A DNA stretch of 56,618 nt from a virus. The stretch lies in the UHGV virus genome UHGV-2050067; one strand, written 5' to 3'. The notes beneath the pieces were generated by a model, which worked only from the letters and a program-made list of their open reading frames with translations, was not told the origin of the DNA and ran no database searches. The position numbers and the translations under genes are program-made. Shown here piece by piece: positions 1 to 56,618 of the stretch. Within the stretch, counting starts at the first letter, position 1. Each line of letters begins with the position of its first letter.

Positions 1-362
1 AGTTTGTAGCGCATATCGTCGATGAGTTCCAACATCTGCCGCCGCTGGTGCTCTTCACGTAGTAGCTGTGCGTATCCCTTCAGGTTGGCAGCAGACGGGC
101 ACGATCGCGCCGTTTGCATTAGCGGTACGAAATTTTCATTACCAATCTCATCACCGACCAGCAATGCATCAATAAGATTTCTGTTTCTGGCTTGTGCCCG
201 GATAACTTCAAACGCACGTTTATAGAGCGGGATCGTGAACACTTCAGGATCAAGCGTGGCGAGAACATCTTGCGCGTTAGGAGTAAGGCCGCCCAACAGC
301 AGCCCGCCGATAACTGACGCTTCACGTTCCTGCCGTAGTGAGTTTATTTGCTCAGTTACCAT
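1..362 (-). CDS. replicative DNA helicase (DnaB-like), 5' portion; gene runs off the window start
   Basis: Minus-strand ATG at 362 gives [57 protein letters not shown]..., colinear with the N-terminus of the helicase ORF at 55260-56555; SD ggagg upstream. Confidence 0.7.
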
Positions 363-380
363 TATGTCATTACCTCCGGT

Positions 381-1499
381 TTACAAAATGGAATATTCAG
401 GGTAATAAACAAAGCGCCCGATCTCCCCATGATCCTGGCTGTAAATAATCACCGCTGCCATACGACGTGACCGCCAGCCGCCATTAGTTGAGTAAGCGTC
501 TTTACCCGCTAACGTGCCGTGATACTCAACAACGCCTAACGATGATTCAATCAGCCGTTGATGATGCCAGTGCCCGCAATGAGCGTAAACCGCCGCAGAC
601 TTGCCGAAATCCTCCCGCCAGTCAGATACGCAAGCCGACAATAAATTTTCTGGCTTTTTGATAGTGTGCCCGTGGTGGTAAGCGAGGAATGTTTTGCCGT
701 ACTGCGTGTGGTGGACGATAGCAGGGGACACATCAACAGTTACGCGCGGTTCGTCTTCGTAAAAAGCTGCCAGCGCAGCACGTAGCCAGATCATTCCTGA
801 CTGGTCGTGATTGCCGGATAACACCTGGATTTCTACATCCTTATGATTTAACAACATCTTCCCGACCGCCCGCCGTACCGACCGGATCGCTACATAGACA
901 AGTTTTGCATAGCGACTATCTTGATCAAGAATGTGCCCGCTTGTTGGTGTAACAGGAACCATTCCATCAGAGTGAAGCAGGTCGCCACCGAGAAGCAAAA
1001 CGGCTTTTTCAGACATCGGCGCGGCGCCCACAGCGTAGTCAAAGAAGTCATTTAACACGCGCTCAGCGATCCCAGTGTCGTAGCTCTCGCCGCATTCTGC
1101 TTTGTGAGCAAGTGCCCCGATATGCAGATCGAATACCGGATAAAGGGCCAGGCTTTTTTGGAAATCAATTTCAGGCACTGGCACAGCCTCCGCGCGTGGT
1201 ATCTCATCCGTGAAAGCGTCGCGGGCCGCTTCCATTAGCTGTTCCATTTCGTCGCGGTCACGGGCTGTTTTAATCCAGCGCATGATCACATTGCCGTTTT
1301 TATCGACTAGCAATGACTCGCCATTGACGCCAAAACCAGGCGCGCGGCGTGTTGATAATAAACCACGTTTCGCAAGTTTTGCGCCCAGACGCTCGACGTT
1401 GCGTTTTGACATGCAATATTTTTCAGCGATCTGTTTATACGTTAAACCGTTGTTATATTCAGCGATCAATTGCTCATCGCTTATCTTTCTTTGTGACAT
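381..1499 (-). CDS. N-terminal HTH fused to calcineurin-like metallophosphoesterase (NinI-like phosphatase fold)
   Basis: 372-aa ORF; metallophosphoesterase motifs DLHIG, GGDLLHSDG, GNHD, HHGH, GHWH; HTH-like N-terminus; stop 19 nt before the helicase start. Confidence 0.65.
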   Translation of the reverse strand: MSQRKISDEQLIAEYNNGLTYKQIAEKYCMSKRNVERLGAKLAKRGLLSTRRAPGFGVNGESLLVDKNGNVIMRWIKTARDRDEMEQLMEAARDAFTDEIPRAEAVPVPEIDFQKSLALYPVFDLHIGALAHKAECGESYDTGIAERVLNDFFDYAVGAAPMSEKAVLLLGGDLLHSDGMVPVTPTSGHILDQDSRYAKLVYVAIRSVRRAVGKMLLNHKDVEIQVLSGNHDQSGMIWLRAALAAFYEDEPRVTVDVSPAIVHHTQYGKTFLAYHHGHTIKKPENLLSACVSDWREDFGKSAAVYAHCGHWHHQRLIESSLGVVEYHGTLAGKDAYSTNGGWRSRRMAAVIIYSQDHGEIGRFVYYPEYSIL

Positions 1500-5558: not shown

Positions 5559-5891
5559 TCATTCCTCCGGTAACATCACTACATAGACATCACTGAACGC
5601 ATCAAGACGACAAACAAACCCTTTATGCATTAACGCGGCGAAGGCATCATGTACCGTATGAACAGGAAGTTCACACATTTTTGCGATTTCTTGTCGTGAT
5701 ACCATGACGTGACGGCGGTTATCTGCCTTTTCAGCCAGAGCCATTAAGACCAGTTTTTGAATCAGGCTGTTAAGTTTTACTTTCCATACTTCGCTAATCA
5801 TGTTCATGCTCATTGTATTTTCTCCTATGGTTAAAATGAACGCGCGGGCGGGCATCCCATTAGCATTAGATAGCAGTGACTGACCGCTCAA
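5559..5891 (-). CDS. winged-helix HTH protein, first gene of the leftward early operon
   Basis: 110-aa ORF; LIQKLVLMALAEKADNRRHVMVSRQEIAKMCELPVHTVHDAFAALMHKGFV resembles HTH_36 domains of replication proteins; divergent from the CI-like gene. Confidence 0.5.
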   Translation of the reverse strand: MSGQSLLSNANGMPARAFILTIGENTMSMNMISEVWKVKLNSLIQKLVLMALAEKADNRRHVMVSRQEIAKMCELPVHTVHDAFAALMHKGFVCRLDAFSDVYVVMLPEE

Positions 5892-5921
5892 CAGATCCCG
5901 CCGTTGCGTGATATTTGTTTT

Positions 5922-5955
5922 TCGCTTCGCAGCGACACCGGATTTTTAAAGAGCT
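5922..5955 (-). promoter_or_regulatory. candidate nut-like site (boxA-like GCTCTTTAAAAA plus short hairpin) on the minus-strand transcript
   Basis: Minus strand reads GCTCTTTAAAAA, then 8 nt, then tcgc-tgcgaa-gcga stem-loop, upstream of the 5891 start. Confidence 0.3.
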
Positions 5956-5994
5956 TAAGTGGTTGGCCTTTTGTGCTTTCCTTTATCTTTTTTC

Positions 5995-6058
5995 TTGCAT
6001 CATTGCAACTATGGCCTTACCTTGTTTGCAAGTTTACAGAATGGCGTTGACAGGTCAA
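5995..6058. promoter_or_regulatory. immunity switch region: three palindromic operator candidates spaced about 26 bp apart
   Basis: TTGCAtcatTGCAA (5995-6008), cTTGtttgCAAg (6021-6032), TTGACaggTCAA (6047-6058) between divergent early and repressor genes. Confidence 0.45.
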
Positions 6059-6117
6059 GGCTTTAAAAATACGTTTTGTGACTTGTATCAAACTTTTTTA
6101 GGTTATAGGGTAGCGAC

Positions 6118-6765
6118 ATGAAAACAAAATGGTATGACTTAGCAAAACAACTCATGCGGGCGCAGGGCATGAGCCAGGATTCATTGGCTGATCTCATGGG
6201 GATAACCAAAGGTGGCCTTTCGCACTGGCTGAACGGTCGCCGTGAGCCGAATCTTGAAGATATTGCGCGTATCATGCGGGCGCTTGGGCGTCGGCAATTC
6301 ACTGTTACTCATGACGGAATGGTCATTGATGATTCTGTTTCTAACACGTTGCCGGGAGCGCCACCGCGTGATTTAGGCAGTTACCCGGTTGTTGACTGGA
6401 AGGATGTAGCAAACAATATGGAAGGCACACACCGATCAACATTGCCACACGTTGCTACTAGCGTTATTTGTTCGGATGATAGTTATTGGCTGGTTGCTAA
6501 AGGTGAATCAATGAACGCACCGCAAGGGTTGAGCATCCCGGCGGGGACTATGATACTTGTTGACCCGCACGCGCCAGCTATTGACGGAAAACTTGTTATA
6601 GCACAACTGGAGGAAGGGCAGATACCTACGTTTAAACAGTTGATTATTGATGGAGGCCGAAAACTTTTGCGTTCACTAAATCCGTTGTATCCGCCGATCC
6701 CTATGAATCCAGAGTCAAAAATCATTGGCGTGGTTGTTGACGCGAAGATCGTAAACCTGCCATAA
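6118..6765 (+). CDS. CI-like phage repressor (HTH_XRE plus S24 LexA-like peptidase domain)
   Basis: 215-aa ORF; N-terminal HTH (QDSLADLMGITKGGLSHWLNGRREP); C-terminal S24 motifs (VAKGESMNAPQ Ser, IDGKLVIAQL Lys). Confidence 0.85.
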   Translation: MKTKWYDLAKQLMRAQGMSQDSLADLMGITKGGLSHWLNGRREPNLEDIARIMRALGRRQFTVTHDGMVIDDSVSNTLPGAPPRDLGSYPVVDWKDVANNMEGTHRSTLPHVATSVICSDDSYWLVAKGESMNAPQGLSIPAGTMILVDPHAPAIDGKLVIAQLEEGQIPTFKQLIIDGGRKLLRSLNPLYPPIPMNPESKIIGVVVDAKIVNLP

Positions 6766-6796: not shown

Positions 6797-6888
6797 CCTG
6801 GAAAACACCAAAACGTAAACAGAAAACGTTATTTATTATTTAAATATCAATGGGATATAAAATATTTTAAAAAAGTATACAAAATGGA

Positions 6889-6917
6889 TTGACTCGGTGT
6901 TTTACGGGGCGTATATT
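6889..6917 (+). promoter_or_regulatory. sigma70-like promoter (pL-like) for the rightward operon
   Basis: TTGACT, 17-bp spacer, TATATT; about 45 nt upstream of boxA. Confidence 0.5.
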
Positions 6918-6960: not shown

Positions 6961-6998
6961 TGCTCTTTAACAATCTGGTCAGCCGCTGGAAGTGCGGC
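6961..6998 (+). promoter_or_regulatory. nut-like site: boxA (TGCTCTTTAACAA) plus boxB-like hairpin
   Basis: boxA at 6961-6973 is identical to the rrn-type boxA consensus; gccgc-tggaagt-gcggc stem-loop at 6982-6998; between promoter and N-like ORF. Confidence 0.5.
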
Positions 6999-7055: not shown

Positions 7056-7346
7056 ATGAGCGTTACAATCATGTATGGCAAATGTGACAGTAAACTGAAT
7101 GCCAGGGAACGCAGAAAAATAAAAAGAGAAAACGAAAGAAAATCATCACCTGCAATTAATAAAACAGACAATGTGGATAAAGCTATTCGATTTGCAAACG
7201 AGGAAAGGTGCAAACCAAATAGCATTAAAGAACGTCGCAAAGGATCAGTAAAATGGTATATGGAAAATGAAAGCGGCAGCTACTACCACGCAACGCAACC
7301 ACGCCATTTAGGGGAAAAACCCCTGGATAAAGTCCGCTATCATTAA
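7056..7346 (+). CDS. N-like transcription antiterminator candidate (arginine-rich motif)
   Basis: 96-aa basic ORF with N-terminal NARERRKIKRENERK arginine-rich motif; first gene after the promoter and nut-like site. Confidence 0.4.
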   Translation: MSVTIMYGKCDSKLNARERRKIKRENERKSSPAINKTDNVDKAIRFANEERCKPNSIKERRKGSVKWYMENESGSYYHATQPRHLGEKPLDKVRYH

Positions 7347-7376
7347 TACAAAATGTAAACATTCGGAGGTGACATT

Positions 7377-10562: not shown

Positions 10563-11192
10563 ATGAACATCATGAACGACATCAAAACAGCTTATTCACT
10601 TGGCAGCAATGGCATGTTAATCACTCGCTACACTGAAGATGCAAGTTTTCATGAAGTGGAAACGAAGGATTATCACGAAGTATTAAAAGATATGGAAGCT
10701 GGCGCGTATGACGCTGATTTAAACCTGGCTATGCAGATTGTTGATATTATGATGGACGCGTCGATCCGCGATTATGTGTCTTTAAACGCTGAAGAAAAAA
10801 CTGCCGTAGCTCGTTATGTCTTCTGCCTTGCTTTCGTAAAACGCATGGAAGAAGAATTTGGACGAGTACCAGTGCCGGAAGAAATTGACCCACTGGCGTT
10901 CGGAAGTGCTGTTATTTTCCCGTTAGATGAAAATCATACGGGTAGCGTTGCGCTGTATTCTGTGCGCGGCGTAATGAAAAAAGTATTCGAGGCTAAAGCG
11001 TTACAGAAGTGTATTGATGAAGGGCACAAAGAGGAAGAAGTAAAGGCGATCATGCCATTATTTTACGGCGAAATGGTTGGCAATAATATGCGCGCAAATG
11101 ATTTAGGTGTACAGGCAGCTATAGCTGTGCTTAATGACGCGCGGAAAGACGCACAGCTAGTGCCTGAACCTGAAAAACGCGTACTTCATTAA
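10563..11192 (+). CDS. hypothetical protein (209 aa)
   Basis: ORF track; no motif recognised. Confidence 0.45.
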   Translation: MNIMNDIKTAYSLGSNGMLITRYTEDASFHEVETKDYHEVLKDMEAGAYDADLNLAMQIVDIMMDASIRDYVSLNAEEKTAVARYVFCLAFVKRMEEEFGRVPVPEEIDPLAFGSAVIFPLDENHTGSVALYSVRGVMKKVFEAKALQKCIDEGHKEEEVKAIMPLFYGEMVGNNMRANDLGVQAAIAVLNDARKDAQLVPEPEKRVLH

Positions 11193-11195
11193 CAT

Positions 11196-11211
11196 TGTGA
11201 TTGCGATCACA
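11196..11211. promoter_or_regulatory. perfect TGTGA-N6-TCACA palindrome (CRP-consensus-like) in an intergenic gap
   Basis: tgtgattgcgatcaca; further TGTGA half-sites at about 11231 and 11249; about 80 nt upstream of the 11292 ORF. Confidence 0.4.
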
Positions 11212-11291
11212 TAAATATACATTTTGTTTTGTGATCGCATGTCCGTTTTGTGAACTGAAATCAAAAGGTTTACGGCGCGGAGGAAAACAAG

Positions 11292-14733: not shown

Positions 14734-14892
14734 AGTTTACAAAATGGCGTCATTGCGTGATATGGATCACATAATGGCGCTTTTCGCCTTGTTCTGGTGT
14801 ATCCATTTTGTATACTTCAAGCAAACAAAATGCTCTTTAAAAATCCGGCAGCGCTGAAATGCGTAGAAATCACCTGAAAAGGAGAGAGCATT

Positions 14893-16325: not shown

Positions 16326-16504
16326 AAAACGAAATTAAAGATCTGCAAATAGATATTCAGCGCGATGAGCATGATTTAGAGACTGTGCGACAAATACAGG
16401 CTTTCCACATGCGAGAATTGCTTGCGCTTAAAGAGCTTGAAAGAAAGTTGGTGCAAGCAATATCTGATCGCAAAAGACTTGTTGCGCGTTACGGGGGCAA
16501 GTAA
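16322..16504 (+). CDS. hypothetical protein (60 aa)
   Basis: ORF track. Confidence 0.35.
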   Translation: MKNEIKDLQIDIQRDEHDLETVRQIQAFHMRELLALKELERKLVQAISDRKRLVARYGGK

Positions 16505-17226
16505 TGAATCTGGAATCTATTCTCAAATTCCACTTCCCAAAATCACCGCGTTTATCAGATGAAAGCCGGGGAACGTCCCCGGATGCTCTTAATACTACGG
16601 ATGCACTAACTGCCGCAGGTATGGCGCAATCGCGCGTAGAGCTTGGTTACAGCGCTTTTTTAGGGAAGATGGAACTATCACAAGCCGAAAAGCATAAGGC
16701 CGTAGTTTTGCTTACAGAGCGTTTAAGGGCTATGGCAAAAGATTATGAATACGTTATGGAACTGGACGAGGCCAAACGCAATGATCTCATTATTCTTGTT
16801 GCCGTTTTCGCATTTCGGGATTATTGCCAGAGTGCCGCGACGGAAAAAACTTGTATGGAGTGCGGCGGATATAAATTTACGTTTGACGAATACGGAGAAA
16901 AACACCTTTGCAAAAAATGCAAGGGGCATGGGACAGTTCGCAATCATTGTAAACAATGCAAGGGCCGTGGCGAAGTACCGGATAAAGCAGCCAGTGAAGC
17001 GGCGGAAATGCCAGTGTTCAAAACGTGCCAGCATTGCGGCGGGCGCGGGTACTCGCGTTTCCCTGTAGATCTTGTACGGCGGGCGGTTAATCAGCTTGTT
17101 TTCCCGGTAAGCCGATCAACGTGGTGGAAGAAATACCGCGCTTTCTATGAAGACGCCATTGCTGAATTGTTCAAAGAAGAGGCGCGGGCTGACAACGAAA
17201 TCAAACGAGTAACACGGGGTGAATGA
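16504..17226 (+). CDS. DnaJ-type zinc-finger protein (four CxxCxGxG repeats); possible Q-like regulator
   Basis: 240 aa; CMECGGYK, CKKCKGHG, CKQCKGRG, CQHCGGRG. Confidence 0.5.
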   Translation: MNLESILKFHFPKSPRLSDESRGTSPDALNTTDALTAAGMAQSRVELGYSAFLGKMELSQAEKHKAVVLLTERLRAMAKDYEYVMELDEAKRNDLIILVAVFAFRDYCQSAATEKTCMECGGYKFTFDEYGEKHLCKKCKGHGTVRNHCKQCKGRGEVPDKAASEAAEMPVFKTCQHCGGRGYSRFPVDLVRRAVNQLVFPVSRSTWWKKYRAFYEDAIAELFKEEARADNEIKRVTRGE

Positions 17227-33734: not shown

Positions 33735-34211
33735 ATGTCTGAGACTTGCAAAAATGGCTCATTTACAGGCCGTGACGTTGCTGTATTCTTTGCTATCGCT
33801 TGCCCTAACGCCAAACCGGAAACTGGAGCGTACAAGGCGTTAGGCATGATGCGCGGCAAAACACTTTCCGTAGAATGGGAAACCGCAGACGCCACCGCTG
33901 ATAAATCCGCCGACTATACCAAAGAATCCCTGGTCACTTACAAATCTGTTTCTTTCTCCGGCGACGGCGTATCACGTAGTGATGCTCTACACAACCAGAA
34001 AGAACTAAAGCGTCATGTAATGTCACCGGGCACTGCTACCGGAAATCAGCCATACGTGTGGCTAAAAATCGTCACTCCCACCGATGTGACTGAGGGTCCA
34101 TTCCTTTGCACATCTTTCGAAGAAGAGGCGCCGCACGATGATGTGACAACCTGGTCCATTGAGTGCGAAAGCGCGGGCCAGGTAACTGTAACCGATCCGG
34201 TTGCCGCATAA
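33735..34211 (+). CDS. major tail (tube) protein
   Basis: 158-aa ORF followed by a terminator and the chaperone/tape-measure genes. Confidence 0.55.
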   Translation: MSETCKNGSFTGRDVAVFFAIACPNAKPETGAYKALGMMRGKTLSVEWETADATADKSADYTKESLVTYKSVSFSGDGVSRSDALHNQKELKRHVMSPGTATGNQPYVWLKIVTPTDVTEGPFLCTSFEEEAPHDDVTTWSIECESAGQVTVTDPVAA

Positions 34212-34218
34212 ACAATAA

Positions 34219-34246
34219 AAGGGGGCCATTTGGCCCCCTTCCTTTT
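34219..34246 (+). terminator. rho-independent terminator after the major tail gene
   Basis: gggggcca-tt-tggccccc hairpin followed by T-rich tract. Confidence 0.6.
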
Positions 34247-34258
34247 AGGGTGAAGACT

Positions 34259-34939
34259 ATGATTCATGTTCGTACCGGACAATTTGCGGCTGTGGTGAAC
34301 GGTAAGCGCTATAAATTTAACCCGTGTTTCGCTGCGATGGCTAAAATCGGTAATGACAGGGAGCTTGTGGAATGTTTCGCAACCATCCACGGTAGCAAAT
34401 ACCCTTCACGATTACCTACAGATCCAGGCCTCCGCAATCGCATTATGGCGCGGTGTTATGGTGAGATAGTACAAACGTCAATGCGCATCCTGAAATGTTG
34501 CTCAGACGACGAAACAGGCCCGTTATTAGGCGAATGCTGGTTCACTCCTTCGGGTAAATTGAGATTAAAACCGGGAATAATGCCAGTTGATGATGTTATC
34601 ACGCTGGCGCAACACTGCATGTACCACGGTTTAATTGGTGACGGCCCTGAAGAGGTCGCAAGCGAGAGGCGGGAAGGTGAATACAAACCAACGTTCGACA
34701 TACTGGAGTTTGTTTATTCTGCCGTTGCTCACCTGGGGTTATCAGAATCAGAAGCGTGGAATATGACAATGACCGGATATAGGGCCGCTGTGCGTGCTAA
34801 AACGCCGCCAGAAGCAAGAAACAAACAAAAACGACCAGATGTATTACTGGATAAAAAGGCTTATGACGATGGAATGAGGGAGGCTATGGAGATACTAAAA
34901 AGAATGGAAAATAGCGAGCAAGAAAAAGCCCGGGATTAG
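34259..34939 (+). CDS. tail assembly chaperone (G/GT-position)
   Basis: ATG at 34259 within track ORF 34163-34939; about 226 aa; between major tail and tape-measure genes; no convincing slippery heptamer seen. Confidence 0.45.
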   Translation: MIHVRTGQFAAVVNGKRYKFNPCFAAMAKIGNDRELVECFATIHGSKYPSRLPTDPGLRNRIMARCYGEIVQTSMRILKCCSDDETGPLLGECWFTPSGKLRLKPGIMPVDDVITLAQHCMYHGLIGDGPEEVASERREGEYKPTFDILEFVYSAVAHLGLSESEAWNMTMTGYRAAVRAKTPPEARNKQKRPDVLLDKKAYDDGMREAMEILKRMENSEQEKARD

Positions 34940-34945
34940 CCGGGC
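34923..34945 (-). terminator. terminator for the minus-strand moron
   Basis: gcccgg-gattag-ccgggc hairpin; on the minus strand it is followed by TTTTT. Confidence 0.45.
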
Positions 34946-34960
34946 CTCTAAAATTCTGTG

Positions 34961-35320
34961 TTAGTTGAAATACGCATCAACTCTGTGGGCCACGTTTACA
35001 CCATAAGACTCGCCATCCTTAAACGCATTTAGTGACGCTTTATTGTTTTTTGCCGCCTCTTTTAATCCATTGTACTTGCTATTAAGATCTTTCCATTCAG
35101 CGGTTTTTTCTAATACTGGCTTCATTGCGTAATGAATACAGCCAACGTTAAATGGCATTTCCAGATCACCATTACCGTCACCATGCTTTATATCGTACAA
35201 CTGAGCATTATGCGCACATTCACGAAGTATGTATTTTGCGGACGGAGAGTGCTCAGCATTAGCATTAAGCGCAACTCCTGCAAGTACCGCCACGATTAAG
35301 ATTTTTGCCAGACTTTTCAT
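34961..35320 (-). CDS. secreted protein moron (signal peptide, two Cys), unknown function
   Basis: 119 aa; N-terminal MKSLAKILIVAVLAGVALNANA; opposite strand to flanking tail genes. Confidence 0.6.
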   Translation of the reverse strand: MKSLAKILIVAVLAGVALNANAEHSPSAKYILRECAHNAQLYDIKHGDGNGDLEMPFNVGCIHYAMKPVLEKTAEWKDLNSKYNGLKEAAKNNKASLNAFKDGESYGVNVAHRVDAYFN

Positions 35321-35332
35321 ATTTCACCCCGC

Positions 35333-35422
35333 TTAGTTTTTGTTTTTCAGCGCTTTTAACATTTGCTCGATAAAGTCAGCATAGCGCTCATGTTCGTTGG
35401 GGTGGTAGTTTACGTTTTTCAT
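35333..35422 (-). CDS. small ORF (29 aa) upstream of the secreted moron
   Basis: MKNVNYHPNEHERYADFIEQMLKALKNKN with SD aagagga; same strand as the moron. Confidence 0.25.
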   Translation of the reverse strand: MKNVNYHPNEHERYADFIEQMLKALKNKN

Positions 35423-35500
35423 TTTCTTATCCTCTTTTGCTTCCTCCGGTCAATCCGGCCTTTTAAGTCCCTTCGCTCTATCCCTTTCCTTTGGCTTCTT

Positions 35501-35570
35501 TATACAAAATGTGTTCACTGAAGTAAATCCATTTTGTATAAAATAGAGGCATAGATCACATTTTGTATGA
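35501..35570. promoter_or_regulatory. inverted TACAAAATG / CATTTTGTA motif cluster in divergent intergenic region (candidate moron promoter/operator)
   Basis: tatacaaaatg (35501-35511), ccattttgtataa (35529-35541), cacattttgtatg (35558-35570); same motif recurs at other junctions. Confidence 0.4.
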
Positions 35571-35579
35571 GGTTAAATC

Positions 35580-38500
35580 ATGTCAACAAATTTAGGCACA
35601 ATTTATTACGAGGTTGATGCAAAAACGGGTCAGCTTCTGACTGTTCAGCGCGAGGTAGATCGCGCAACTGGCAAAATGGAAAAGGATTTGGAGCGCGTGG
35701 ATAGTGCCGCCACTCAGGCAAGTAAGTCACTGTCAAAGCTATCCTCGATTGCCAGTGCCCTGGGTGCTGCAATGGCAGCAAAAAAAATCATTGAGTATGC
35801 AAACGCCTGGCAGGAGGTGAATAACAGGCTAATCAATAGCGTTCGTGCTGGTGAATCACTGGCAGACGTTAATCAGCGTGTATTTCAGATCGCGCAAAAT
35901 TCACGAAGCGATCTTGATGCTACGGCAGATCTTTACGGTAAATTAGAGCGCTCGACGCGCGACGCTGGTTTATCGACGCAAGCACTTGGTGATATGGTTG
36001 AAACCATTAACAAAACATTCCGCATTTCTGGCGCTTCTGCCGCTGAAGCAGAAGGCGGGATCCGTCAGTTAGGTCAGTCCCTCGCCAAAGGTATTTTGAA
36101 TGGCGATGAATTTAACTCCGTTACAGAAAACGCCACCAGGCTGTCAGAGGGTTTGGCTAAATCATTGGGCGTATCGTCGGCAGAAATGCGCAAGATGGCA
36201 GCAGAAGGGAAAATCACCCGTGAAGCTATCATTAAAGCCCTTAAGGAAATGAAAGCGGAGGTTGATGCTGAGTTTTCTAAACTCACCCCAACTATGCAGG
36301 AGGCTTTCACTGTTGCAGGCAACAACGCAGCTAAATTTTTCGGCAGCAATTCGTCAATTATGGGCGGGATTGGTGCTTTTAATTCGGCAGTTGTAACCCT
36401 GTCAGAAAACCTTAACGAAATAGCTACTGCATTTATTGGCCTTGCCACTGTGATGGGTGGCAGAGTGGTAAATAAATTCGTGGCTGCAACAGCAGAGGCA
36501 TTAACTAACGCTCAGGCAACCAGGGCACAAACGGCAGCGGCACGGCAGGCCGCTCAGAGTGAATTGGCGCTAGCTAACGCTCAGGTGGTATCAGCACGGC
36601 AATCAGCGGCGGCGTCGGCGGCAAGGCTGAGAGAGGCACAGGCTTATGCTGCGGCAAATGCCGGAACAAAATTCGAAGTTCAGACGCTGAAAGAGTTGGC
36701 TGTAGCCAAAGCACAGAACACAGCGGCATCAAACGCCCTTACTGCGGCAGAGCAGCGCCTTGCTGCGGCCCACACTGCGGCGGCGACTAATGCGGGACTA
36801 CTAAAAACAGCATTTAGCGCTACTCTGGGCGCGATCGGCGGTATCCCTGGCGCGTTAATGCTTGCTGTTTACGGGTTGACAGCATATGTAGATCACGTAG
36901 ATCAAACAGCAGAGGCAAACCGCAACCTTGCTGATTCAGTGGATGTTAGTACCGAATCACTGGAGCGAATGAGCAAGGCGGCTAAACTGGCTGGCGCAGA
37001 TAAACTACAAATATCAATGGGTCAGTTAGAGGAAGACATTGACAGTCTTAACAAACAGATTGACCAGGACACGCAGGCGCTGGAACTGAATAAGCGGGCA
37101 CTGGAGAACGCCGAGGAGGGATCACGCGCTTACGCCAACCTATCGAAAGCTAATCAGGAAATCACAGCCCGCCTGACCAGGGAAGAAGCACAGCGTGAAG
37201 ATATTCTCGACCGCCTTAATCAAATGCAGCGCAAATATATTCTGCTTATGCAGGATACAGATCCGCTAATGAAGACCATTGCCACTTCTTTGGGGTTGGT
37301 GGCAGACGCATACGGAAGAATCACCACAGAAGCAGAACGCGCAGCAGCAGCAACGCAACACGCTTCAGCAGCGCTTAACGCAGATCAACAAGAACTAATG
37401 GATCTGGCAAACCGCCGCCTGGAACTGGCAAAACTCGACTCCAAAACAGCCAGCAGGGAAAAGGCGATTGATGGGTTTAAGCGTGAGGCTGAGAAAGCAA
37501 ACCTGACCGGGGAAGCGTATGAAAAATACATGGCTACAATGACCAAAGCATACGACACAGAGCAGAAACGCGCCGAAGCTGAAAGAAAGGCCAGTCATGG
37601 GAAAAAAACTGGCGAAAGCGAGGAGAAAAAACGTCTAAAAGAGGCTGAACGCCTGCGCAAAGAGCTTGAGAAGCGGGGCCAGAATGTTGCAGACAAATAC
37701 AACGTAGAAGCCGCAGCACAACGGAAATTAAAAGAGGATCAGGATGCGCTAAACGCCGCACTTAAAAGCGGAAAAATAAATACCGAACAATATACTACGG
37801 CATGGAAAGCGCTGGTTGCGGCGGAAGAGCAACGCAAACGCCAATCTAGTTGGGATAATCTGGTAAACAATGAGCTGCAACTACGCGGGCAGCTAGACCC
37901 AATTCAGCAGGCGATGAACGAATGGGCGGTTCGCAAGCAGATGCTCACAGATTTAGGCGCTACAGAGCAATATATGAGGGAGCAAGAAAAAGCGCATGAG
38001 AGGGAAATGCTATCACTTCAGTGGGAGAGGTATAAGGCGCAGTCATTGACCAACCAACTGTTAGGCGATGCTGTTGATGCAATGAGCGGATCTGCAACTA
38101 ACGCGCTTGTCGGCCTGATTAACGGTACTCAAAATTGGCAACAGGCGATCGCTAACATTGGCAATACAATCCTTTCCTCCGTGATTGGTACGATTGTTCA
38201 AATGGGTACTGAGTGGGTCAAGCAGCAATTGATTGGTGATACGGCAAGAACTATGGCAACAACCAAAGCACTGGCAGAGGCGGCAGCGTTATCATCAGCG
38301 TGGGCTACTCCTGCATACTTGGCAAACGTAGCCACGATGGGCGGCGCGGCGACCGTGGGGACTACGAGCCTTACTACTGGTGTGGCTGGAGCAAAAGCGC
38401 TTGGCCTGGCTGGCGCTCGTTATAACGGCGGTGCGGTGGCTGCGGGCAGCCTCTACAAGGTCGGCGAACACGGCAAACCGGAAATCTTTCAGGCAAGCAA

Positions 38501-38972: not shown

Positions 38973-39227
38973 TCACTTGTGAGCGCCTTTTACGCCACAT
39001 AACTTGTTATAGGCATGGTGCTCAACAATTAACCAAACCTTCAAATCTTCGCTAAACAGCCTCCAATCAAGATTGATATCCATTTTGTATCCGTAACCGT
39101 CGCGTAACTTTTTGGGGTAAACTTCTTTTCTCAGAAAGGCGTTAAGCAATTCCTTACCTTTCTTGATGATCCGGTCCTGTGCGTTTTTCTGTGCTTTCAA
39201 GTTTTTACCAATCGCCACCAATTTCAT
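38973..39227 (-). CDS. RelE/YafQ/ParE-superfamily-like toxin candidate
   Basis: ATG at 39227 with SD gtgggg; ...YKMDINLDWRLFSEDLKVWLIVEHHAYNKL resembles the RelE/YafQ C-terminal pattern. Confidence 0.4.
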   Translation of the reverse strand: MKLVAIGKNLKAQKNAQDRIIKKGKELLNAFLRKEVYPKKLRDGYGYKMDINLDWRLFSEDLKVWLIVEHHAYNKLCGVKGAHK

Positions 39228-39245
39228 AACACACCCCACAATCCA

Positions 39246-39401: not shown

Positions 39402-39571
39402 GTTGTCCCCCCTTTGTCGGTACTGCTTTTTCTTCTTGCTTACTATATACATCTTGTCACGCCTTATGTGAAGCCATTTTGTAAACTGGTTATAATTCTT
39501 GTGATGAATTTCTCATTTTTCGCGTAGAAGCGCGTAAAGATGTATGCAATATGTAACTTATAGGGGGAATC

Positions 39572-40278: not shown

Positions 40279-40527
40279 CTATAAGTTATCACGCAGATAA
40301 TTAACGCCCTTATCAGTGACGAATGAATGATTAACCTGGTTTTCGTCCGTCATGATGATAAATAACTTTTCCTGTAGGTATTTCGCTTTTGGGTACAGCG
40401 TTAAACAGACCTGGTACAGTATCCCGCGCTCAATCAGCAAATCAATAAATTCGTGCTCATGATAACCGATGAGGCGGGCGGCCTGTTTCAACGTGTACAC
40501 ATAATCGCCGTGATTGCGCCTCCCCAT
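40279..40527 (-). CDS. hypothetical protein (82 aa), moron cassette
   Basis: ORF track; opposite strand to tail genes. Confidence 0.45.
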   Translation of the reverse strand: MGRRNHGDYVYTLKQAARLIGYHEHEFIDLLIERGILYQVCLTLYPKAKYLQEKLFIIMTDENQVNHSFVTDKGVNYLRDNL

Positions 40528-40901: not shown

Positions 40902-41132
40902 CTATTTGGCAGGTTCGATCCTGTATCCCAAAACGCGGTCATCTTCAGCAAGTAAAAGCGCGTCAGTTAGTGCCTCGCCTTCGTCTTTATACAGAGCTAC
41001 AGTCATTTCCCTGCCGCCTGACAGGAATACCGTCAACCTCCACACCTTATCAGCCATCCCACACCTCCGCGCCATTTTGTTAACCCTGCTTCCTTTTGAG
41101 TACAATATACATATTGTAAAAAGCGCTATCAA
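40902..41132 (-). CDS. hypothetical protein (76 aa or shorter), first gene of moron cassette
   Basis: ORF track; inverted repeat TACAATAT-ac-ATATTGTA lies just upstream at about 41100-41120. Confidence 0.4.
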   Translation of the reverse strand: MIALFTICILYSKGSRVNKMARRCGMADKVWRLTVFLSGGREMTVALYKDEGEALTDALLLAEDDRVLGYRIEPAK

Positions 41133-41185
41133 CCGTTTTGGTATGATTTAGCGTGACAGCGATCACAAAATGACAAGGTGAAAAA

Positions 41186-48557: not shown

Positions 48558-48585
48558 AACCCCGCTTCGCGCGGGGTTTTCTTTT
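48558..48585. terminator. bidirectional rho-independent terminator between J-like gene and lipoprotein moron
   Basis: aaccccgc-ttcgc-gcggggtt hairpin flanked by A-run upstream and T-run downstream. Confidence 0.65.
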
Positions 48586-48832
48586 AGTAGTTAGCTACAC
48601 AGTTAGAAGGGCTACCGATGCGGCGCATGTTGTGATCGAGTTCGTGACACCATTGACCAGTATAAGGCAGTTTTTCAGTGTCATAGACAAGATGCCCGTT
48701 AACATCATAAACAACATCCTGTGGAATTACTCCACTATTCGGCAGGTTATGCAATGCAGCTTCCTTATCAACAGCACATCCAGTAAGAGCTACAGCCGCA
48801 GCGAACAAAACCACTTTGAACATGTTTTTCAT
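48584..48832 (-). CDS. lipoprotein moron (possible Cor-like superinfection-exclusion lipoprotein)
   Basis: 82 aa; signal peptide with lipobox (VALTGC); opposite strand between J and tail fiber genes. Confidence 0.55.
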   Translation of the reverse strand: MKNMFKVVLFAAAVALTGCAVDKEAALHNLPNSGVIPQDVVYDVNGHLVYDTEKLPYTGQWCHELDHNMRRIGSPSNCVANY

Positions 48833-48926
48833 TTTTAAAGCCTCATTCTCGTTTGTTCATCCGGTTCATCCGGTGGCTTAAATATCCGACAAAAGCACAT
48901 TTCGTATATTGACACAAATCAACAAA

Positions 48927-49000
48927 TACATTTTGTGTAAGCAGAAAATGCAACACAGATCACAAAATGGTAGAATTATTCCGTTAATTAACAAAATGGA
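48927..49000. promoter_or_regulatory. TACAAAATGG-family motif cluster upstream of tail fiber gene / lipoprotein moron
   Basis: tacattttgtg (48927), atcacaaaatgg (48958), aacaaaatggagtcattgcg (48990) immediately before the fiber ATG. Confidence 0.35.
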
Positions 49001-49009
49001 GTCATTGCG

Positions 49010-53608: not shown

Positions 53609-53770
53609 TTACGCCACAGTTACATTGTCAACTTTGATAAAATATTCAGGGTGATTTTCTATTTCGTGCTTAAAGTGCGCGTGACACAATCGCCAATCAC
53701 GCGCCTGGTTGTGAAAGTAATAAACGTATTCGCCATCAATCTTATACAAAATGCCTGTAGGTTTAGCCAT
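53609..53770 (-). CDS. small ORF (about 53 aa), hypothetical
   Basis: MAKPTGILYKIDGEYVYYFHNQARDWRLCHAHFKHEIENHPEYFIKVDNVTVA; alternative upstream start at 53785; absent from the track. Confidence 0.3.
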   Translation of the reverse strand: MAKPTGILYKIDGEYVYYFHNQARDWRLCHAHFKHEIENHPEYFIKVDNVTVA

Positions 53771-55259: not shown

Positions 55260-56618
55260 TTAAAAGGATGCGTTATTCTGGTTGTTTCGTTGGTTAAATC
55301 GACTTGTGCGATGATTCATCGACTGAATACATGCAGACGCTGCGCGGGCCTGGTCGCAAGGGAGGATATTGCCGTTGTCGTCAAATCGCTGGTAAACAGT
55401 CCCCGTTTTCCCGTGACGGTTTTTCGAAACAATGATCTCCATATATTCGCGGGCAACAGACTGTTCATCATAGTACCCGTCGCGATAGACCATGATGATC
55501 CGGTCTGCGTCCTGTTCAAGATTCCCGGAATCGCGCAGATCAGAATTATTCGGGCGCTTGTTCGGTCGTTCCTCAACGCGGCGGGATAATTGCGCCAGCG
55601 CCAACACTGGTACGCGCAATTCTTTCGCCATCATCTTCAACGACCATGACAATTGCCCTACAGCGAGATCGTGACGTTCGGCCTTAGCCAGCTTCATTAG
55701 ACCGATGTAGTCAATCATTACCATACCCAGGTTCGGGTGTTCCTGCTTCATGCGTTCCGTTGTTGCGCGTATTTCCTCAACCGTCAACTGCGACGCGTCA
55801 ACGATCCACACCTCAAGATTAGCAAGTGCGCTCATCCCCTGGCCTACATGCGCCCAACCCTCATCATCAAGTTTTACCGGATTGCGCAGGCAGTCAGTTG
55901 ATAAATTACCAGCGCCAGCGATAGCACGCTCAGTCATCTGATCGAGTGACATTTCAAGCGTGAAGAGCAAAACGCCAACCCGCTGTTCTTTACCACCAGG
56001 GTAAGGGCGTTCAGCGGCTGCGCGGGCAATTGTCAGCGCCAACGCAGATTTACCAGACCCAGGGCGTCCGGCGAGAAGTACCAAATCAGTAGCGTTAATG
56101 CCGCCCAACATTTCGTCGAGTGGTTCTATACCTGTTTTGATGTTGTCAGAATTGACACCGCATTCCATGCGCGTGCTTAAAACATCCGTATATTCCTGTA
56201 CCGCATCGCGCAACAGAACCGGAATGATCTTATCTTTCGTTACCTTCAATTTTGAATACCGGGAATCAAAATCTTTCATCGTCTCTTTGACGACCTCAAG
56301 CGTCCCCGTTTCCAGTTTGTAGCGCATATCGTCGATGAGTTCCAACATCTGCCGCCGCTGGTGCTCTTCACGTAGTAGCTGTGCGTATCCTTTCAGGTTT
56401 GCGGCAGAAGGACACGATCGCGCCGTTTGCATCAGAGGAACAAAGTTTTCATTGCCAATCTCATCGCCAACCAATAACGCGTCGATAAGATTCCTGTTTC
56501 TGGCTTGCGCCCGGATAACCTCAAACGCACGTTTGTAAAGCGGGATCGTGAACACTTCAGGATCCAGAGTGGCGAGAACATCTTGCGCGTTAGGAGTGAG
56601 GCCGCCTAACAGCAGCCC
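55260..56618 (-). CDS. replicative DNA helicase (DnaB-like); 5' end lies beyond the window end
   Basis: Walker A LLAGRPGSGKSALALT and DnaB-like C-terminal domain; reading frame stays open upstream of the track start at 56555 to the window edge, matching the longer N-terminus of the left-edge copy. Confidence 0.85.
   Translation of the reverse strand, partial: GLLLGGLTPNAQDVLATLDPEVFTIPLYKRAFEVIRAQARNRNLIDALLVGDEIGNENFVPLMQTARSCPSAANLKGYAQLLREEHQRRQMLELIDDMRYKLETGTLEVVKETMKDFDSRYSKLKVTKDKIIPVLLRDAVQEYTDVLSTRMECGVNSDNIKTGIEPLDEMLGGINATDLVLLAGRPGSGKSALALTIARAAAERPYPGGKEQRVGVLLFTLEMSLDQMTERAIAGAGNLSTDCLRNPVKLDDEGWAHVGQGMSALANLEVWIVDASQLTVEEIRATTERMKQEHPNLGMVMIDYIGLMKLAKAERHDLAVGQLSWSLKMMAKELRVPVLALAQLSRRVEERPNKRPNNSDLRDSGNLEQDADRIIMVYRDGYYDEQSVAREYMEIIVSKNRHGKTGTVYQRFDDNGNILPCDQARAASACIQSMNHRTSRFNQRNNQNNASF

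What the first reader, a model, noticed from the sequence alone, without database searches (positions are those of the whole stretch)
35501..35570. Recurrent TACAAAATGG / CCATTTTGTA motif family at many module junctions
Close variants occur at 381-391, 6875-6888, 7351-7362, 14738-14757 and 14803-14814, 35501-35570 (three copies as inverted repeats), 39474-39486, 48927-49000 (three copies) and 53744-53754, and a related inverted repeat TACAATAT-ac-ATATTGTA at about 41100-41120. Most lie in intergenic regions at divergent junctions between plus-strand tail genes and minus-strand morons. Two copies extend to a shared 20-mer ACAAAATGG(C/A)GTCATTGCG (14741, 48991). This may be an operator for a phage regulator, a promoter element, or a conserved linker for modular recombination.
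Basis: seen in the sequence. Interest (0 to 1): 0.6.

Follow-up and report, generated by a model that had tools for sequence, protein, structure and literature searches.

The report
Dispersed repressor operators in a coliphage
The recurring TACAAAATGG motif is most likely the DNA site bound by this temperate E. coli phage's lambda-like CI repressor, but it is spread over about a dozen promoter regions across the genome instead of sitting only next to the repressor gene.

Summary
TACAAAATGG/CCATTTTGTA words are the most over-represented 9-, 10- and 11-mers in the window: 24 hits with at most one mismatch against 6 expected, and 8 exact copies against about 0.2 expected. In the curated relative mEp021, 13 of 18 hits lie in the 12.5% of DNA that is non-coding.

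The window is a temperate E. coli siphophage of the mEpimmI group (mEp021/mEp515). The sites are kept at syntenic positions in about 45 related genomes.

The motif extends to a 17-bp pseudo-palindrome, GTWTACAA-A-ATGGmtwc. It sits at two fixed positions relative to sigma-70-like promoters, centred at -16/-17 or -41/-42. These are the positions of lambda OR1 and OR2 at PR, which I checked on the lambda record.

The phage repressor is a full-length lambda CI homologue. In eight other prophage contexts that carry homologues of this CI, the same operator family (GTATACA-N4-GT) occurs as two to four copies flanking the cI gene. A control with a P22-C2-type DNA-binding domain lacks it.

So the motif is very probably the CI (immunity) operator. 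In this clade it is dispersed to about 12 regulatory regions, including reverse-oriented cassettes in the tail operon. The recombination-linker idea is not supported. Binding and transcription starts remain untested.

The parts
35500..35516 (+). Operator copy A, TTATACAAAATGTGTTC. Centred at -16 of the leftward promoter P35(-) and at -41 of the rightward promoter P35(+).
   Evidence: PWM score 21.0; geometry; sequence.
35525..35541 (-). Operator copy B, TTATACAAAATGGATTT. Centred at -16 of P35(+) and at -41 of P35(-), 25 bp from copy A.
   Evidence: PWM score 24.0.
35554..35570 (-). Operator copy C, TCATACAAAATGTGATC. Lies at +13 of P35(+), in the 5' leader of the tape-measure gene (ATG at 35580), 29 bp from copy B.
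   Evidence: PWM score 17.5.
35499..35526 (-). Predicted leftward promoter P35(-), TTTACT-17-TATAAA, TSS about 35492. It would drive a 29-aa ORF (ATG at 35422) and the 119-aa ORF 34961-35320.
   Evidence: Relaxed promoter scan. The -35 hexamer is conserved in relatives. The strict scanner missed it because -7 is A.
35514..35542 (+). Predicted rightward promoter P35(+), TTCACT-17-TATAAA, TSS about 35549, facing the tape-measure gene. Its -35 is poor in most relatives.
6118..6765 (+). cI-like repressor gene (215 aa; HTH_3 plus Peptidase_S24). This is the proposed binder of the motif.
   Evidence: Pfam; full-length match to lambda repressor 3bdn, E = 1.3e-18; PMC11893012 shows that gp15/Rep021 confers immunity.
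6032..6048 (+). Operator GTTTACAGAATGGCGTT. Centred at -16 of leftward PL (TTGACC-16-TAAACT, TSS about 6024) and at -42 of a weak rightward cI promoter (TTGACA-17-TACGTT), overlapping its -35 by 2 nt.
6066..6082 (+). Weaker family-type operator AAATACGTTTTGTGACT. It overlaps the -10 of the putative cI promoter and abuts the CRP-like box at 6077-6092.
   Evidence: Family pattern scan.
6875..6891 (+). Operator GTATACAAAATGGATTG. Centred at -41 of PR (TTGACT-17-TATATT, TSS about 6924). Its last 3 nt are the first 3 nt of the -35 hexamer, exactly as for lambda OR2 at PR.
7344..7360 (+). Intra-operon copy TAATACAAAATGTAAAC, between the N-like gene (7056-7346) and the next gene.
   Evidence: PWM score 21.1; conserved in 44 loci.
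11215..11255 (-). Two tandem copies (11215-31 and 11239-55) with centres 24 bp apart. The downstream copy covers the -10 of a rightward promoter. Both are degenerate here but exact in most relatives.
14735..14751 (+). Operator GTTTACAAAATGGCGTC, upstream of the CRP box in the nutR2 region.
   Evidence: PWM score 22.2.
14799..14815 (-). Best-scoring and most palindromic operator, GTATACAAAATGGATAC. Centred at -16 of the promoter TTGTTC-16-TATACT, which starts just upstream of the nutR2 boxA.
   Evidence: PWM score 24.6.
20090..20106 (+). Operator GTATACGAAATGGCATT, centred at -42 of the promoter TTGTTC-17-TATATA (TSS about 20140), between a perfect CRP box and the -35.
39470..39486 (-). Operator GTTTACAAAATGGCTTC, centred at -41 of the leftward promoter TTCACA-17-TATATA. 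That promoter drives the reverse cassette containing a ParE-like toxin (38973-39239). A degenerate second copy lies at 39542-58.
   Evidence: conserved in 44 loci.
41105..41121 (-). Operator-like TTTTACAATATGTATAT inside the perfect palindrome 41101-41118. Centred at -16 of the leftward promoter TTGATA-17-TATATT, which drives the cassette containing a KilAC/antirepressor-like gene.
48924..49003 (.). Three copies (48924-40 on -, 48958-74 on +, 48987-49003 on +) between the lipoprotein gene (48584-48832, - strand) and the tail-fibre gene (ATG at 49010). The middle copy is centred at -17 of an extended -10 promoter, TGgTAGAAT.
379..395 (+). Intra-operon copy GTTTACAAAATGGAATA, immediately upstream of the RBS of the DnaB-like helicase gene in the leftward operon.
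   Evidence: PWM score 21.9; syntenic in 43 loci.
53742..53758 (+). Copy TTATACAAAATGCCTGT in the leftward operon, between the NinB-like gene and the next gene.

Best explanation
The motif is the operator of the phage's lambda-CI-like immunity repressor.

Shown:
- Each copy is the strong half (GTWTACAA) plus the centre of a 17-bp pseudo-palindrome. The family consensus, seen more symmetrically in relatives, is ATAC-N5-GTAT.
- Copies occupy two stereotyped positions relative to predicted sigma-70 promoters. One spans about -24 to -8 and ends inside the -10 hexamer, like lambda OR1. The other spans about -49 to -33 and shares 2-3 nt with the -35 hexamer, like lambda OR2.
- At back-to-back divergent promoters such as 35501-35570, a pair of copies 25 bp apart fills both positions for both promoters.

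Inferred:
- In a lysogen, CI dimers bind these sites, probably cooperatively where copies are 24-25 bp apart.
- This shuts off PL, PR, the nutR2 promoter, the 11.2-kb and 20.1-kb promoters and the promoters of the reverse-oriented cassettes in the tail region.
- Copies that occupy only the -41/-42 position (the cI promoter and the ParE-cassette promoter) could instead be activated, as lambda PRM is from OR2.
- Copies just upstream of ribosome-binding sites inside operons (379, 7344, 53742, 35554, 48987) may act as roadblocks or looping partners.

Unlike lambda, the operators are dispersed over about 12 regulatory regions of the genome.
For: 1. Enrichment: top-ranked k-mers of the window; 24 hits against 6 expected; in mEp021, 13 of 18 hits fall in the 12.5% of DNA that is non-coding, P = 8e-9.
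2. Conservation: syntenic retention in about 45 related genomes.
3. It is the only non-nut element shared by the three early promoter regions.
4. Geometry: 10 site-promoter pairs have the site centre at -16/-17 or -41, against 0.56 expected for random centres (0 of 2000 trials). On the lambda record, OR1 is centred at -17 and OR2 at -41 with a 3-nt overlap of the -35.
5. The repressor is a full-length lambda CI homologue, and its HTH region is nearly invariant across the clade.
6. Co-occurrence across other contexts: the sister clade, whose CI is 56% identical but has an identical recognition helix, keeps TACAAAATGG at cro-cI, after cI and at dispersed sites. The Citrobacter prophage locus L224, and L225 with identical hits, have only 2 hits in 20.7 kb, and both flank cI. 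The Enterobacter, Serratia, Tatumella, Shewanella and L047/L049 prophages carry up to 3-4 copies of (G)TATACA-N4-GT next to cI, at 5-58 per kb in the spacer upstream of cI against 0.1-1.1 per kb elsewhere.
7. A control with a P22-C2-type N-terminal domain has P22-type operators and none of these.
8. The Q-dependent late promoter lacks the motif.
Against: - No binding, footprint or transcription-start data exist. All promoters are consensus predictions, and the motif itself supplies the T-12 and A-11 of the '-16' class.
- The right half-site is weak in this clade (0.2-0.55 bit per position), so dimer binding is an inference from relatives.
- PR has only one copy, at -41, and none over its -10, which is an unusual way to repress the key lytic promoter.
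- Spacings of 29, 34 and 54-88 bp in some clusters do not match lambda's 23-24 bp.
- Intergenic regions are about 90-100% conserved throughout the clade, so footprinting within the clade has little power.
- In the lambdoid relatives a Cro-type gene borders the same spacers, so co-occurrence cannot separate CI from Cro as the binder.
Confidence: 0.7

Rival explanations
1. The motif is bound by a different sequence-specific protein. Candidates are a Cro-like lytic regulator, the small O-N-terminal-like winged-helix protein encoded first in the PL operon (5559-5891), or a host factor. It would not be bound by CI, or not only by CI.
For: In lambdoid relatives the operator-bearing spacers also border a Cro-type HTH_3 gene, and in lambda Cro shares CI's operators. 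The window clade encodes a winged-helix protein at the Cro position. The sites are asymmetric here.
Against: The window clade has no HTH_3 Cro, yet it keeps and multiplies the motif. The O-like winged-helix gene is absent from the relatives that share the operator family. The common denominator of all nine contexts is the CI N-terminal domain type. From memory I recognise no E. coli transcription-factor consensus that matches; this was not tested.
Confidence: 0.15
2. The motif is an intrinsic promoter element read by RNA polymerase alone. In one orientation it would be an A-tract proximal UP subsite at -46 to -38. In the other it would be the spacer and -10 region of a divergent promoter. It would be conserved because each copy serves two overlapping promoters.
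For: The AAAA tract falls at -43 to -40 in six promoters, where the UP-element consensus has AAA (my reading). Three to five of these promoters have class-I-positioned CRP boxes, which need alpha-CTD docking there. The last two bases, TA, coincide with -12/-11 of predicted -10 hexamers.
Against: The flanking TAC and TGG are invariant, but they are not alpha-CTD or sigma contact positions, and TG is one base off the extended -10 register. Copies occur in 5' leaders and inside operons without promoters (379, 7344, 35554, 48987). The upstream copy of the 11.2-kb promoter is in the opposite orientation. The strong late promoter PR' lacks the motif. The same sequence family forms tandem palindromic operators next to cI homologues in other phages.
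Confidence: 0.1
3. The motif is a conserved linker at module boundaries that promotes recombinational exchange of modules between related phages.
For: Several copies lie at junctions between tail genes and reverse-oriented accessory cassettes whose content differs between relatives.
Against: The copies are only 10-17 bp and occur in both orientations within one genome, so recombination between them would delete or invert essential DNA. Half the copies are in the early region at fixed promoter positions. The flanking intergenic DNA is conserved as well, so no discrete 'linker' stands out.
Confidence: 0.03

Closest known systems
Phage lambda CI repressor with its OR/OL operators
   Same: The repressor is homologous over its full length (3bdn). 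The sites are 17-bp pseudo-palindromes with a strong and a weak half. Site centres at -16/-17 and -41/-42 of promoters match lambda OR1 and OR2 at PR, including the 2-3 nt overlap with the -35 hexamer. Paired sites are 24-25 bp apart. One site is shared by a leftward lytic promoter and a weak rightward cI promoter.
   Different: The operator sequence differs (GTATACA... rather than TATCACC...). cI is not divergent from PR; it lies upstream of PR in the same orientation, behind a terminator. There is no Cro-type gene in this clade. There are about 20 sites in about 12 regions rather than 6 sites in 2 regions. PR carries only the OR2-like site.
Phage P1 C1 repressor and its dispersed, asymmetric operators (from established knowledge; not tested here)
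   Same: A single immunity repressor controls many operators scattered over the genome, each overlapping a promoter of a separate operon. The sites look asymmetric.
   Different: C1 is unrelated to lambda CI, and its 17-bp consensus is different. P1 is a plasmid prophage with a tripartite immunity system.
Stoperators of Cluster A mycobacteriophages (L5 gp71) (from established knowledge)
   Same: A 13-14 bp asymmetric repressor site recurs about 20-30 times, including in short intergenic gaps inside operons. Several copies here (379, 7344, 53742, 35554, 48987) sit just upstream of ribosome-binding sites, where they could block read-through.
   Different: Stoperators have one orientation relative to transcription, whereas these sites occur in both. 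Most copies here coincide with promoter elements rather than lying mid-operon. The repressor type is different.
UP elements and class I CRP promoter architecture
   Same: The motif's A-tract lies where alpha-CTD binds (-43 to -40) in six promoters, and consensus CRP boxes lie at about -60.5 in several of them.
   Different: UP elements are not conserved to 10 exact bases and do not recur over -10 regions or in leaders.

Membership tests
Lambda-type CI operator | Bound specifically by the phage's CI repressor | not testable with these tools
   No binding data are available. PMC11893012 shows that Rep021 confers immunity but maps no operators.
Lambda-type CI operator | A pseudo-palindrome of about 17 bp suited to an HTH dimer | tested here: inconclusive
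   The core from -3 to +10 is strongly informative. The right arm carries only 0.2-0.55 bit per position. The best site, GTATACAAAATGGATAC, is symmetric in 6 of 8 pairs. Relatives show a clear ATAC-N5-GTAT palindrome.
Lambda-type CI operator | Overlaps the core elements of early promoters so that a bound repressor occludes RNA polymerase | tested here: met
   Ten site-promoter pairs have centres at -16/-17 or -41, against 0.56 expected (0 of 2000 trials). PL, PR and P41(-) were also found by the strict scanner. Lambda reference values were verified. The promoters are predictions only.
Lambda-type CI operator | Multiple copies flank the repressor gene and are shared by the divergent or early promoters | tested here: met
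   Copies lie at 6032, 6066, 6120 and 6875 around cI. The motif is the only non-nut element shared by the PL, PR and nutR2-promoter regions.
Lambda-type CI operator | Operator sequence type travels with the repressor's DNA-binding-domain type across phages | tested here: met
   Eight other contexts with this CI N-terminal domain type carry the operator family next to cI. A control with a P22-C2-type N-terminal domain does not.
Stoperator (Cluster A mycobacteriophage type) | Single orientation relative to the direction of transcription | tested here: not met
   Both orientations occur within co-directional operons. For example, 7344(+), 14735(+), 14799(-) and 11215/11239(-) all lie in the rightward early operon.
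P1 C1-type dispersed operators | Repressor of the P1 C1 family | tested here: not met
   The repressor is HTH_3 plus Peptidase_S24 and homologous to lambda CI. Only the dispersed layout is analogous.
UP element (alpha-CTD site) | A/T-rich tract at about -38 to -59, without a requirement for specific flanking G/C bases, found only upstream of -35 hexamers | tested here: not met
   The A-tract position fits in six promoters. However, the invariant TAC/TGG flanks, the copies over -10 regions and the copies in leaders and inside operons do not fit.
Q-binding element of a late promoter | Present at the Q-dependent late promoter PR' | tested here: not met
   PR' (TTGTGG-17-TAAAAT, 21651-21679), followed by terminator 21706-21724 and then the holin gene, has no copy.

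The most novel reading that the evidence does not exclude
A lambda-CI-type repressor here runs a genome-wide regulon. About 20 operators in about 12 regions would let one protein silence, and at -41-only sites perhaps activate, all early promoters plus the reverse-oriented accessory cassettes embedded in the tail operon (a ParE-like toxin-antitoxin pair, a KilAC antirepressor-like gene and a lipoprotein). Several of these promoters are also wired to cAMP-CRP.

Because the operators are scattered, immunity cannot be swapped as a cI-operator module. This would explain why this widespread phage family (9 proposed genera, 50 of 96 isolates in the original collection) has a single immunity type, while the lambdoid phages from the same samples have 19.
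Probability: 0.4. Interest if true: 0.7.

Novelty: new variant of a known kind. Interest (0 to 1): 0.55.

Why it matters
- The mEpimmI phages were described in 2025 as a new, gut-prevalent coliphage family. Their repressor was shown to confer immunity, but no operators or promoters were defined (PMC11893012). This analysis gives a concrete, testable operator sequence and a map of about 20 candidate sites.
- It predicts which promoters belong to the immunity regulon. These include cassettes in the tail region that would otherwise be called 'morons' and assumed to be expressed in lysogens.
- It offers a mechanistic alternative to the authors' 'recent emergence' explanation for the family's single immunity group.
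- It shows a lambda-type repressor used in a P1-like or L5-like dispersed layout.

Tried and rejected
- I first read CCATTTTG-TAnnnT as a special -10 or extended -10 promoter class, or a P1-Lpa-like late promoter. I rejected this because -35 hexamers are inconsistent, -7 T is present in only about half the copies, TG is one base off register, and many copies point against local transcription.
- Q-binding element: rejected, because PR' lacks the motif.
- RNA motif: rejected, because the motif occurs in both senses relative to the mRNA.
- Host transcription-factor sites (OmpR, CpxR, IHF, TyrR, MlrA, GadE) were compared from memory only. None fits. This was not a real test.
- Literature search for the motif string returned only primers and unrelated hits.
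- A scan of viral contigs for the inverted pair returned mostly chance matches. The 36-bp configuration appeared essentially only in contigs already known to belong to this clade.
- A protein search with the N-terminal domain alone returned only 5 near-identical hits. The full-length search was needed.
- A naive greedy ORF model for intergenic enrichment was unreliable because spurious ORFs fill the gaps. I replaced it with the curated mEp021 annotation.
- I first took L047-L049 as motif-free distant controls. They turned out to carry the operator family in a diverged form.
- Phylogenetic footprinting within the clade has little power because the intergenic regions are 90-100% conserved.
- The 2023 paper on Gp17 and the nut sites is not held in the library.

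Full report
**What the window is.** Megablast places the window in the mEpimmI group of temperate E. coli siphophages. It is 96.8% identical to mEp515 over 34000-38000, and 85-89% identical to mEp010, mEp013, mEp021, mEp044, mEp554 and MagusPhagus over the early region. This group was described in 2025 as a new family-level clade with a single immunity type. It has a lambda-CI-like repressor (gp15/Rep021), an N-like antiterminator (gp17) with three nut sites, and a Q-like protein. No operators or promoters were mapped (PMC11893012). In the window, cI is 6118-6765 (+), the N-like gene is 7056-7346, the Q-like gene is 16504-17226, and the tape-measure gene starts at 35580.

- TACAAAATGG with at most one mismatch occurs 24 times, against 6.0 +/- 2.2 in dinucleotide-preserving shuffles (0 of 100 shuffles reach 24). 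There are 8 exact copies against about 0.2 expected.
- In an unbiased enumeration with a third-order Markov expectation, words of this motif rank first among all 9-, 10- and 11-mers, with z = 14-24.
Further copies exist at 6035, 11219/11243 and 20093.
- A few hits are coincidences of ...AAAATGG start-codon or coding contexts (6123, 31928, 41072, 28011, 39080, 56312).
- Using the curated annotation of mEp021, 13 of 18 hits fall in the 12.5% of DNA that is non-coding (P = 8e-9).
- The sites are retained at syntenic positions in about 45 related genomes from IMG/VR, for both the early region and the tail region.
- Intergenic DNA in this clade is highly conserved overall, so within-clade footprinting adds little. 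The motif columns are invariant where neighbouring spacer columns vary.

**Anatomy of a site.** I aligned 18 independent intergenic site classes.
- The informative block runs from 3 nt upstream to the end of the 10-mer and slightly beyond. The consensus is G-T-W-TACAAAATG-K-a.
- The six following positions carry weak information, 0.2-0.55 bit each.
- The block fits a 17-bp pseudo-palindrome centred on the third A of the A-tract. The C...G and A...T pairs are conserved and the outer pairs are partly conserved.
- The best site, 14799-14815 GTATACAAAATGGATAC, is symmetric in 6 of 8 pairs.
- A 17-mer weight matrix finds 30 sites of at least 9 bits, against 9 +/- 3 in simulated sequence. About 20 of these fall in 12 regulatory regions. 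This count is partly circular, because the matrix was trained on the same sites.

**Position relative to promoters.** I scanned for sigma-70-like promoters (relaxed consensus, TSS taken as 7 nt after the -10 hexamer) and measured the position of each site centre.
- Ten site-promoter pairs have the centre at -16 (five pairs), -17 (one pair) or -41 (four pairs). Random centres give 0.56 on average, and none of 2000 trials reaches 10.
- By hand, the nutR2 promoter and the 11.2-kb promoter add two more at -16. The cI promoter and the 20.1-kb promoter add two at -42.
- The -41/-42 copies end with the first 2-3 nt of the -35 hexamer. An example is GTATACAAAATGGATTG|ACT at PR.
- I verified on the lambda record that OR1 is centred at -17 of PR. 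OR2 is centred at -41, and its last three bases, TTG, are the start of the -35 hexamer TTGACT.
- So the geometry copies lambda's. One caveat applies: the motif ends in TA, which itself supplies -12/-11 for the '-16' class. The matching -35 hexamers and the whole '-41' class are not built in.

**The flagged locus, 35501-35570.**
- Copy A (35500-16) and copy B (35525-41) are inverted, with centres 25 bp apart.
- They lie within two overlapping, back-to-back promoters. TTTACT-17-TATAAA points left into a small reverse-oriented cassette (a 29-aa ORF and the 119-aa ORF 34961-35320). TTCACT-17-TATAAA points right towards the tape-measure gene.
- Each copy is the OR1-like site of one promoter and the OR2-like site of the other.
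- Copy C (35554-70) lies 29 bp further on, in the tape-measure leader.
- In relatives, the -35 of the leftward promoter is conserved and the -35 of the rightward promoter is poor. The element therefore looks mainly like the control region of the reverse cassette.

**Who binds it?**
- The motif is the only element other than the boxA/nut sequences that is shared by the PL, PR and nutR2-promoter regions. This is what one expects of the immunity operator.
- The repressor is a full-length homologue of lambda CI (3bdn, E = 1.3e-18; HTH_3 plus Peptidase_S24).
- Across 43 clade members, its variable positions are concentrated in the linker, and the HTH region is nearly invariant.

The strongest evidence is comparative. 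I collected more distant CI homologues and fetched their genomic contexts.
- **Sister clade.** These phages have the same genome architecture but a CI only 56% identical, with an identical recognition helix (ITKGGLSHWLNGRREPN). They keep TACAAAATGG in the cro-cI spacer, after cI, upstream of an antirepressor gene and in the nutR2-equivalent region, with 16 hits in 20.6 kb.
- **Citrobacter lambdoid prophage.** It has a different replication module and only two hits with at most one mismatch in 20.7 kb, and both flank cI. One is an exact TACAAAATGG in the 98-bp cro-cI spacer.
- **Other prophages.** Those from Enterobacter, Serratia, Tatumella and Shewanella, and loci L047/L049 (CI 36% identical but with the same MKTKWYDLAK N-terminus), carry up to three or four copies of (G)TATACA-N4-GT(AT) next to cI, typically 25-33 bp apart. 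The density is 5-58 per kb in the spacer upstream of cI, against 0.1-1.1 per kb elsewhere.
- **Control.** A control whose CI has a P22-C2-type N-terminal domain has P22-type operators and none of these.

The window's motif is therefore the strong half-site plus centre of the operator family that travels with this CI N-terminal-domain type. Co-occurrence cannot separate CI from a Cro partner in the lambdoid relatives. The window clade, however, has no Cro-type HTH_3 gene. The first gene of its PL operon resembles the N-terminal winged helix of O-type replication initiators.

**What is unusual.**
- In the lambdoid relatives the operators are confined to the immunity region.
- In the mEpimmI clade and its sister clade they are dispersed. 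In the window they lie at PL and the cI promoter, PR, downstream of the N-like gene, the 11.2-kb promoter, both sides of the nutR2 promoter and the 20.1-kb promoter. They also lie in four divergent junctions in the tail region (35.5, 39.5, 41.1 and 48.9 kb) and at two intra-operon positions in the leftward operon.
- The family-pattern density outside the immunity spacer is 0.6-1.0 per kb here, against 0.1 per kb in the Citrobacter prophage.
- The dispersed copies are also unusually uniform (AAAATGG), whereas the centres and right halves vary in relatives.
- The layout resembles P1 C1 operators or mycobacteriophage stoperators rather than lambda. The orientation rule of stoperators is not met.

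**Likely mechanism.**
- Inferred: in lysogens CI occupies these sites. It represses promoters whose -10 is covered: PL, the nutR2 promoter, the 11.2-kb promoter, both P35 promoters, P41(-) upstream of a KilAC/antirepressor-like gene, and the promoter facing the tail-fibre gene.
- PR has only the OR2-like site. Repression from there is plausible, since the site overlaps the -35, but it is the weakest point of the model.
- Sites present only at -41/-42 could repress or, as at lambda PRM, activate. These are the weak cI promoter, the ParE-cassette promoter P39(-) and the 20.1-kb promoter. The sign cannot be determined from sequence.
- Copies just upstream of ribosome-binding sites may act as roadblocks or looping partners.
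- The Q-dependent late promoter (21651-21679, followed by terminator 21706-21724 and the holin gene) carries no copy. This is consistent with late genes being controlled by Q rather than directly by CI.

**Alternatives.**
- A purely RNA-polymerase-read element (UP subsite plus -10 region) explains the A-tract position. It does not explain the invariant TAC/TGG, the leader and intra-operon copies, the mixed orientations, or the cross-phage association with cI.
- A different binder cannot be excluded without experiments.
- A recombination linker is very unlikely.

**Novelty and interest.** Repressor operators are a known kind of element. This is a previously undefined operator for a newly described phage family, in a dispersed architecture that is unusual for a lambda-type CI. 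It also suggests why the family shows one immunity type, where the authors invoked recent emergence. With operators scattered over the genome, immunity cannot be exchanged as a compact module. All functional claims remain predictions until binding and transcription starts are measured.

Noticed in passing
window 6077-6092, 11196-11211, 14756-14771, 20072-20087, 41152-41167, 39500-39515: These are consensus CRP boxes (TGTGA-N6-TCACA; two are perfect). There are 7 hits with at most one mismatch against 1.6 expected. Five lie about 60-62 bp upstream of predicted transcription starts (PL, the 11.2-kb promoter, the nutR2 promoter, the 20.1-kb promoter and P41(-)), which is class I geometry. In relatives the half-sites are conserved and the N6 spacers vary. 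The phage's early promoters and one cassette promoter appear wired to cAMP-CRP. This is not mentioned in PMC11893012.
   Followed up: partly
window 1-305 versus 56314-56618: The two ends of the window are homologous but only 91% identical over 305 bp. Both are the 5' part of the DnaB-like helicase gene. The window therefore spans more than one phage-genome unit (period about 56.3 kb) with two non-identical copies. This suggests tandem related prophages or a chimeric or concatenated assembly rather than one clean circular genome.
   Followed up: partly
window 21651-21724: This is a canonical late-promoter unit: TTGTGG-17-TAAAAT, a short leader, then a strong terminator (ACCCGGCCCCGCGCCGGGT followed by a T-run) just before the holin gene. 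It lies about 4.4 kb downstream of the Q-like gene (Pfam Antiterm PF03589), with eight or more small genes in between, rather than immediately after Q.
   Followed up: partly
window 5944-5956 (-), 6961-6973 (+), 14831-14843 (+): Three rrn-like boxA sequences, GCTCTTTAA(C/A)AA(T), mark nutL, nutR1 and nutR2. Each lies shortly downstream of a predicted promoter (PL, PR and the operator-covered promoter at 14789-14816). nutR2 therefore seems to have its own CRP-dependent, CI-controlled promoter.
   Followed up: partly
window 5559-5891 (-): The first gene of the leftward operon sits where Cro would be expected. It is instead a small protein resembling the N-terminal winged-helix domain of O-type replication initiators (PHROG 4617, E = 2e-17), separate from the 350-aa replication protein downstream. 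The sister clade has a Cro-type HTH_3 gene at this position (L221 9649-9876).
   Followed up: no
window 14747-14763, 48999-49009 and 5902-5915: There are extra shared strings next to some operator copies: GTCATTGCG follows the motif at 14738 and 48990, and TTGCGTGATAT is shared by 5904 and 14753. They are unexplained. They may be remnants of duplicated control regions or part of the CRP half-site context.
   Followed up: no
window 38973-39239 (-), 40279-40527 (-), 48584-48832 (-): The reverse-oriented cassettes inside the tail operon encode a ParE-like toxin (PF24732), a KilAC/antirepressor-like protein (PF03374) and a lipoprotein (PHROG 12984). Each lies behind a promoter region that carries operator copies. 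They may therefore be CI-regulated rather than constitutive 'morons'.
   Followed up: partly
L002 (mEp021) 11167-11218: The GenBank annotation of the mEp021 repressor starts 17 codons downstream of the MKTKWYDLAK... start. That N-terminus is conserved in CI homologues down to 36% identity, so the annotated start is probably too short and removes helix 1 of the DNA-binding domain.
   Followed up: partly
window 41101-41118: The perfect palindrome TACAATAT-AC-ATATTGTA holds the -10 hexamers of two overlapping divergent promoters: TTGTTA-18-TACAAT on the + strand and TTGATA-17-TATATT on the - strand. It also scores as an operator (16 bits).
   Followed up: partly
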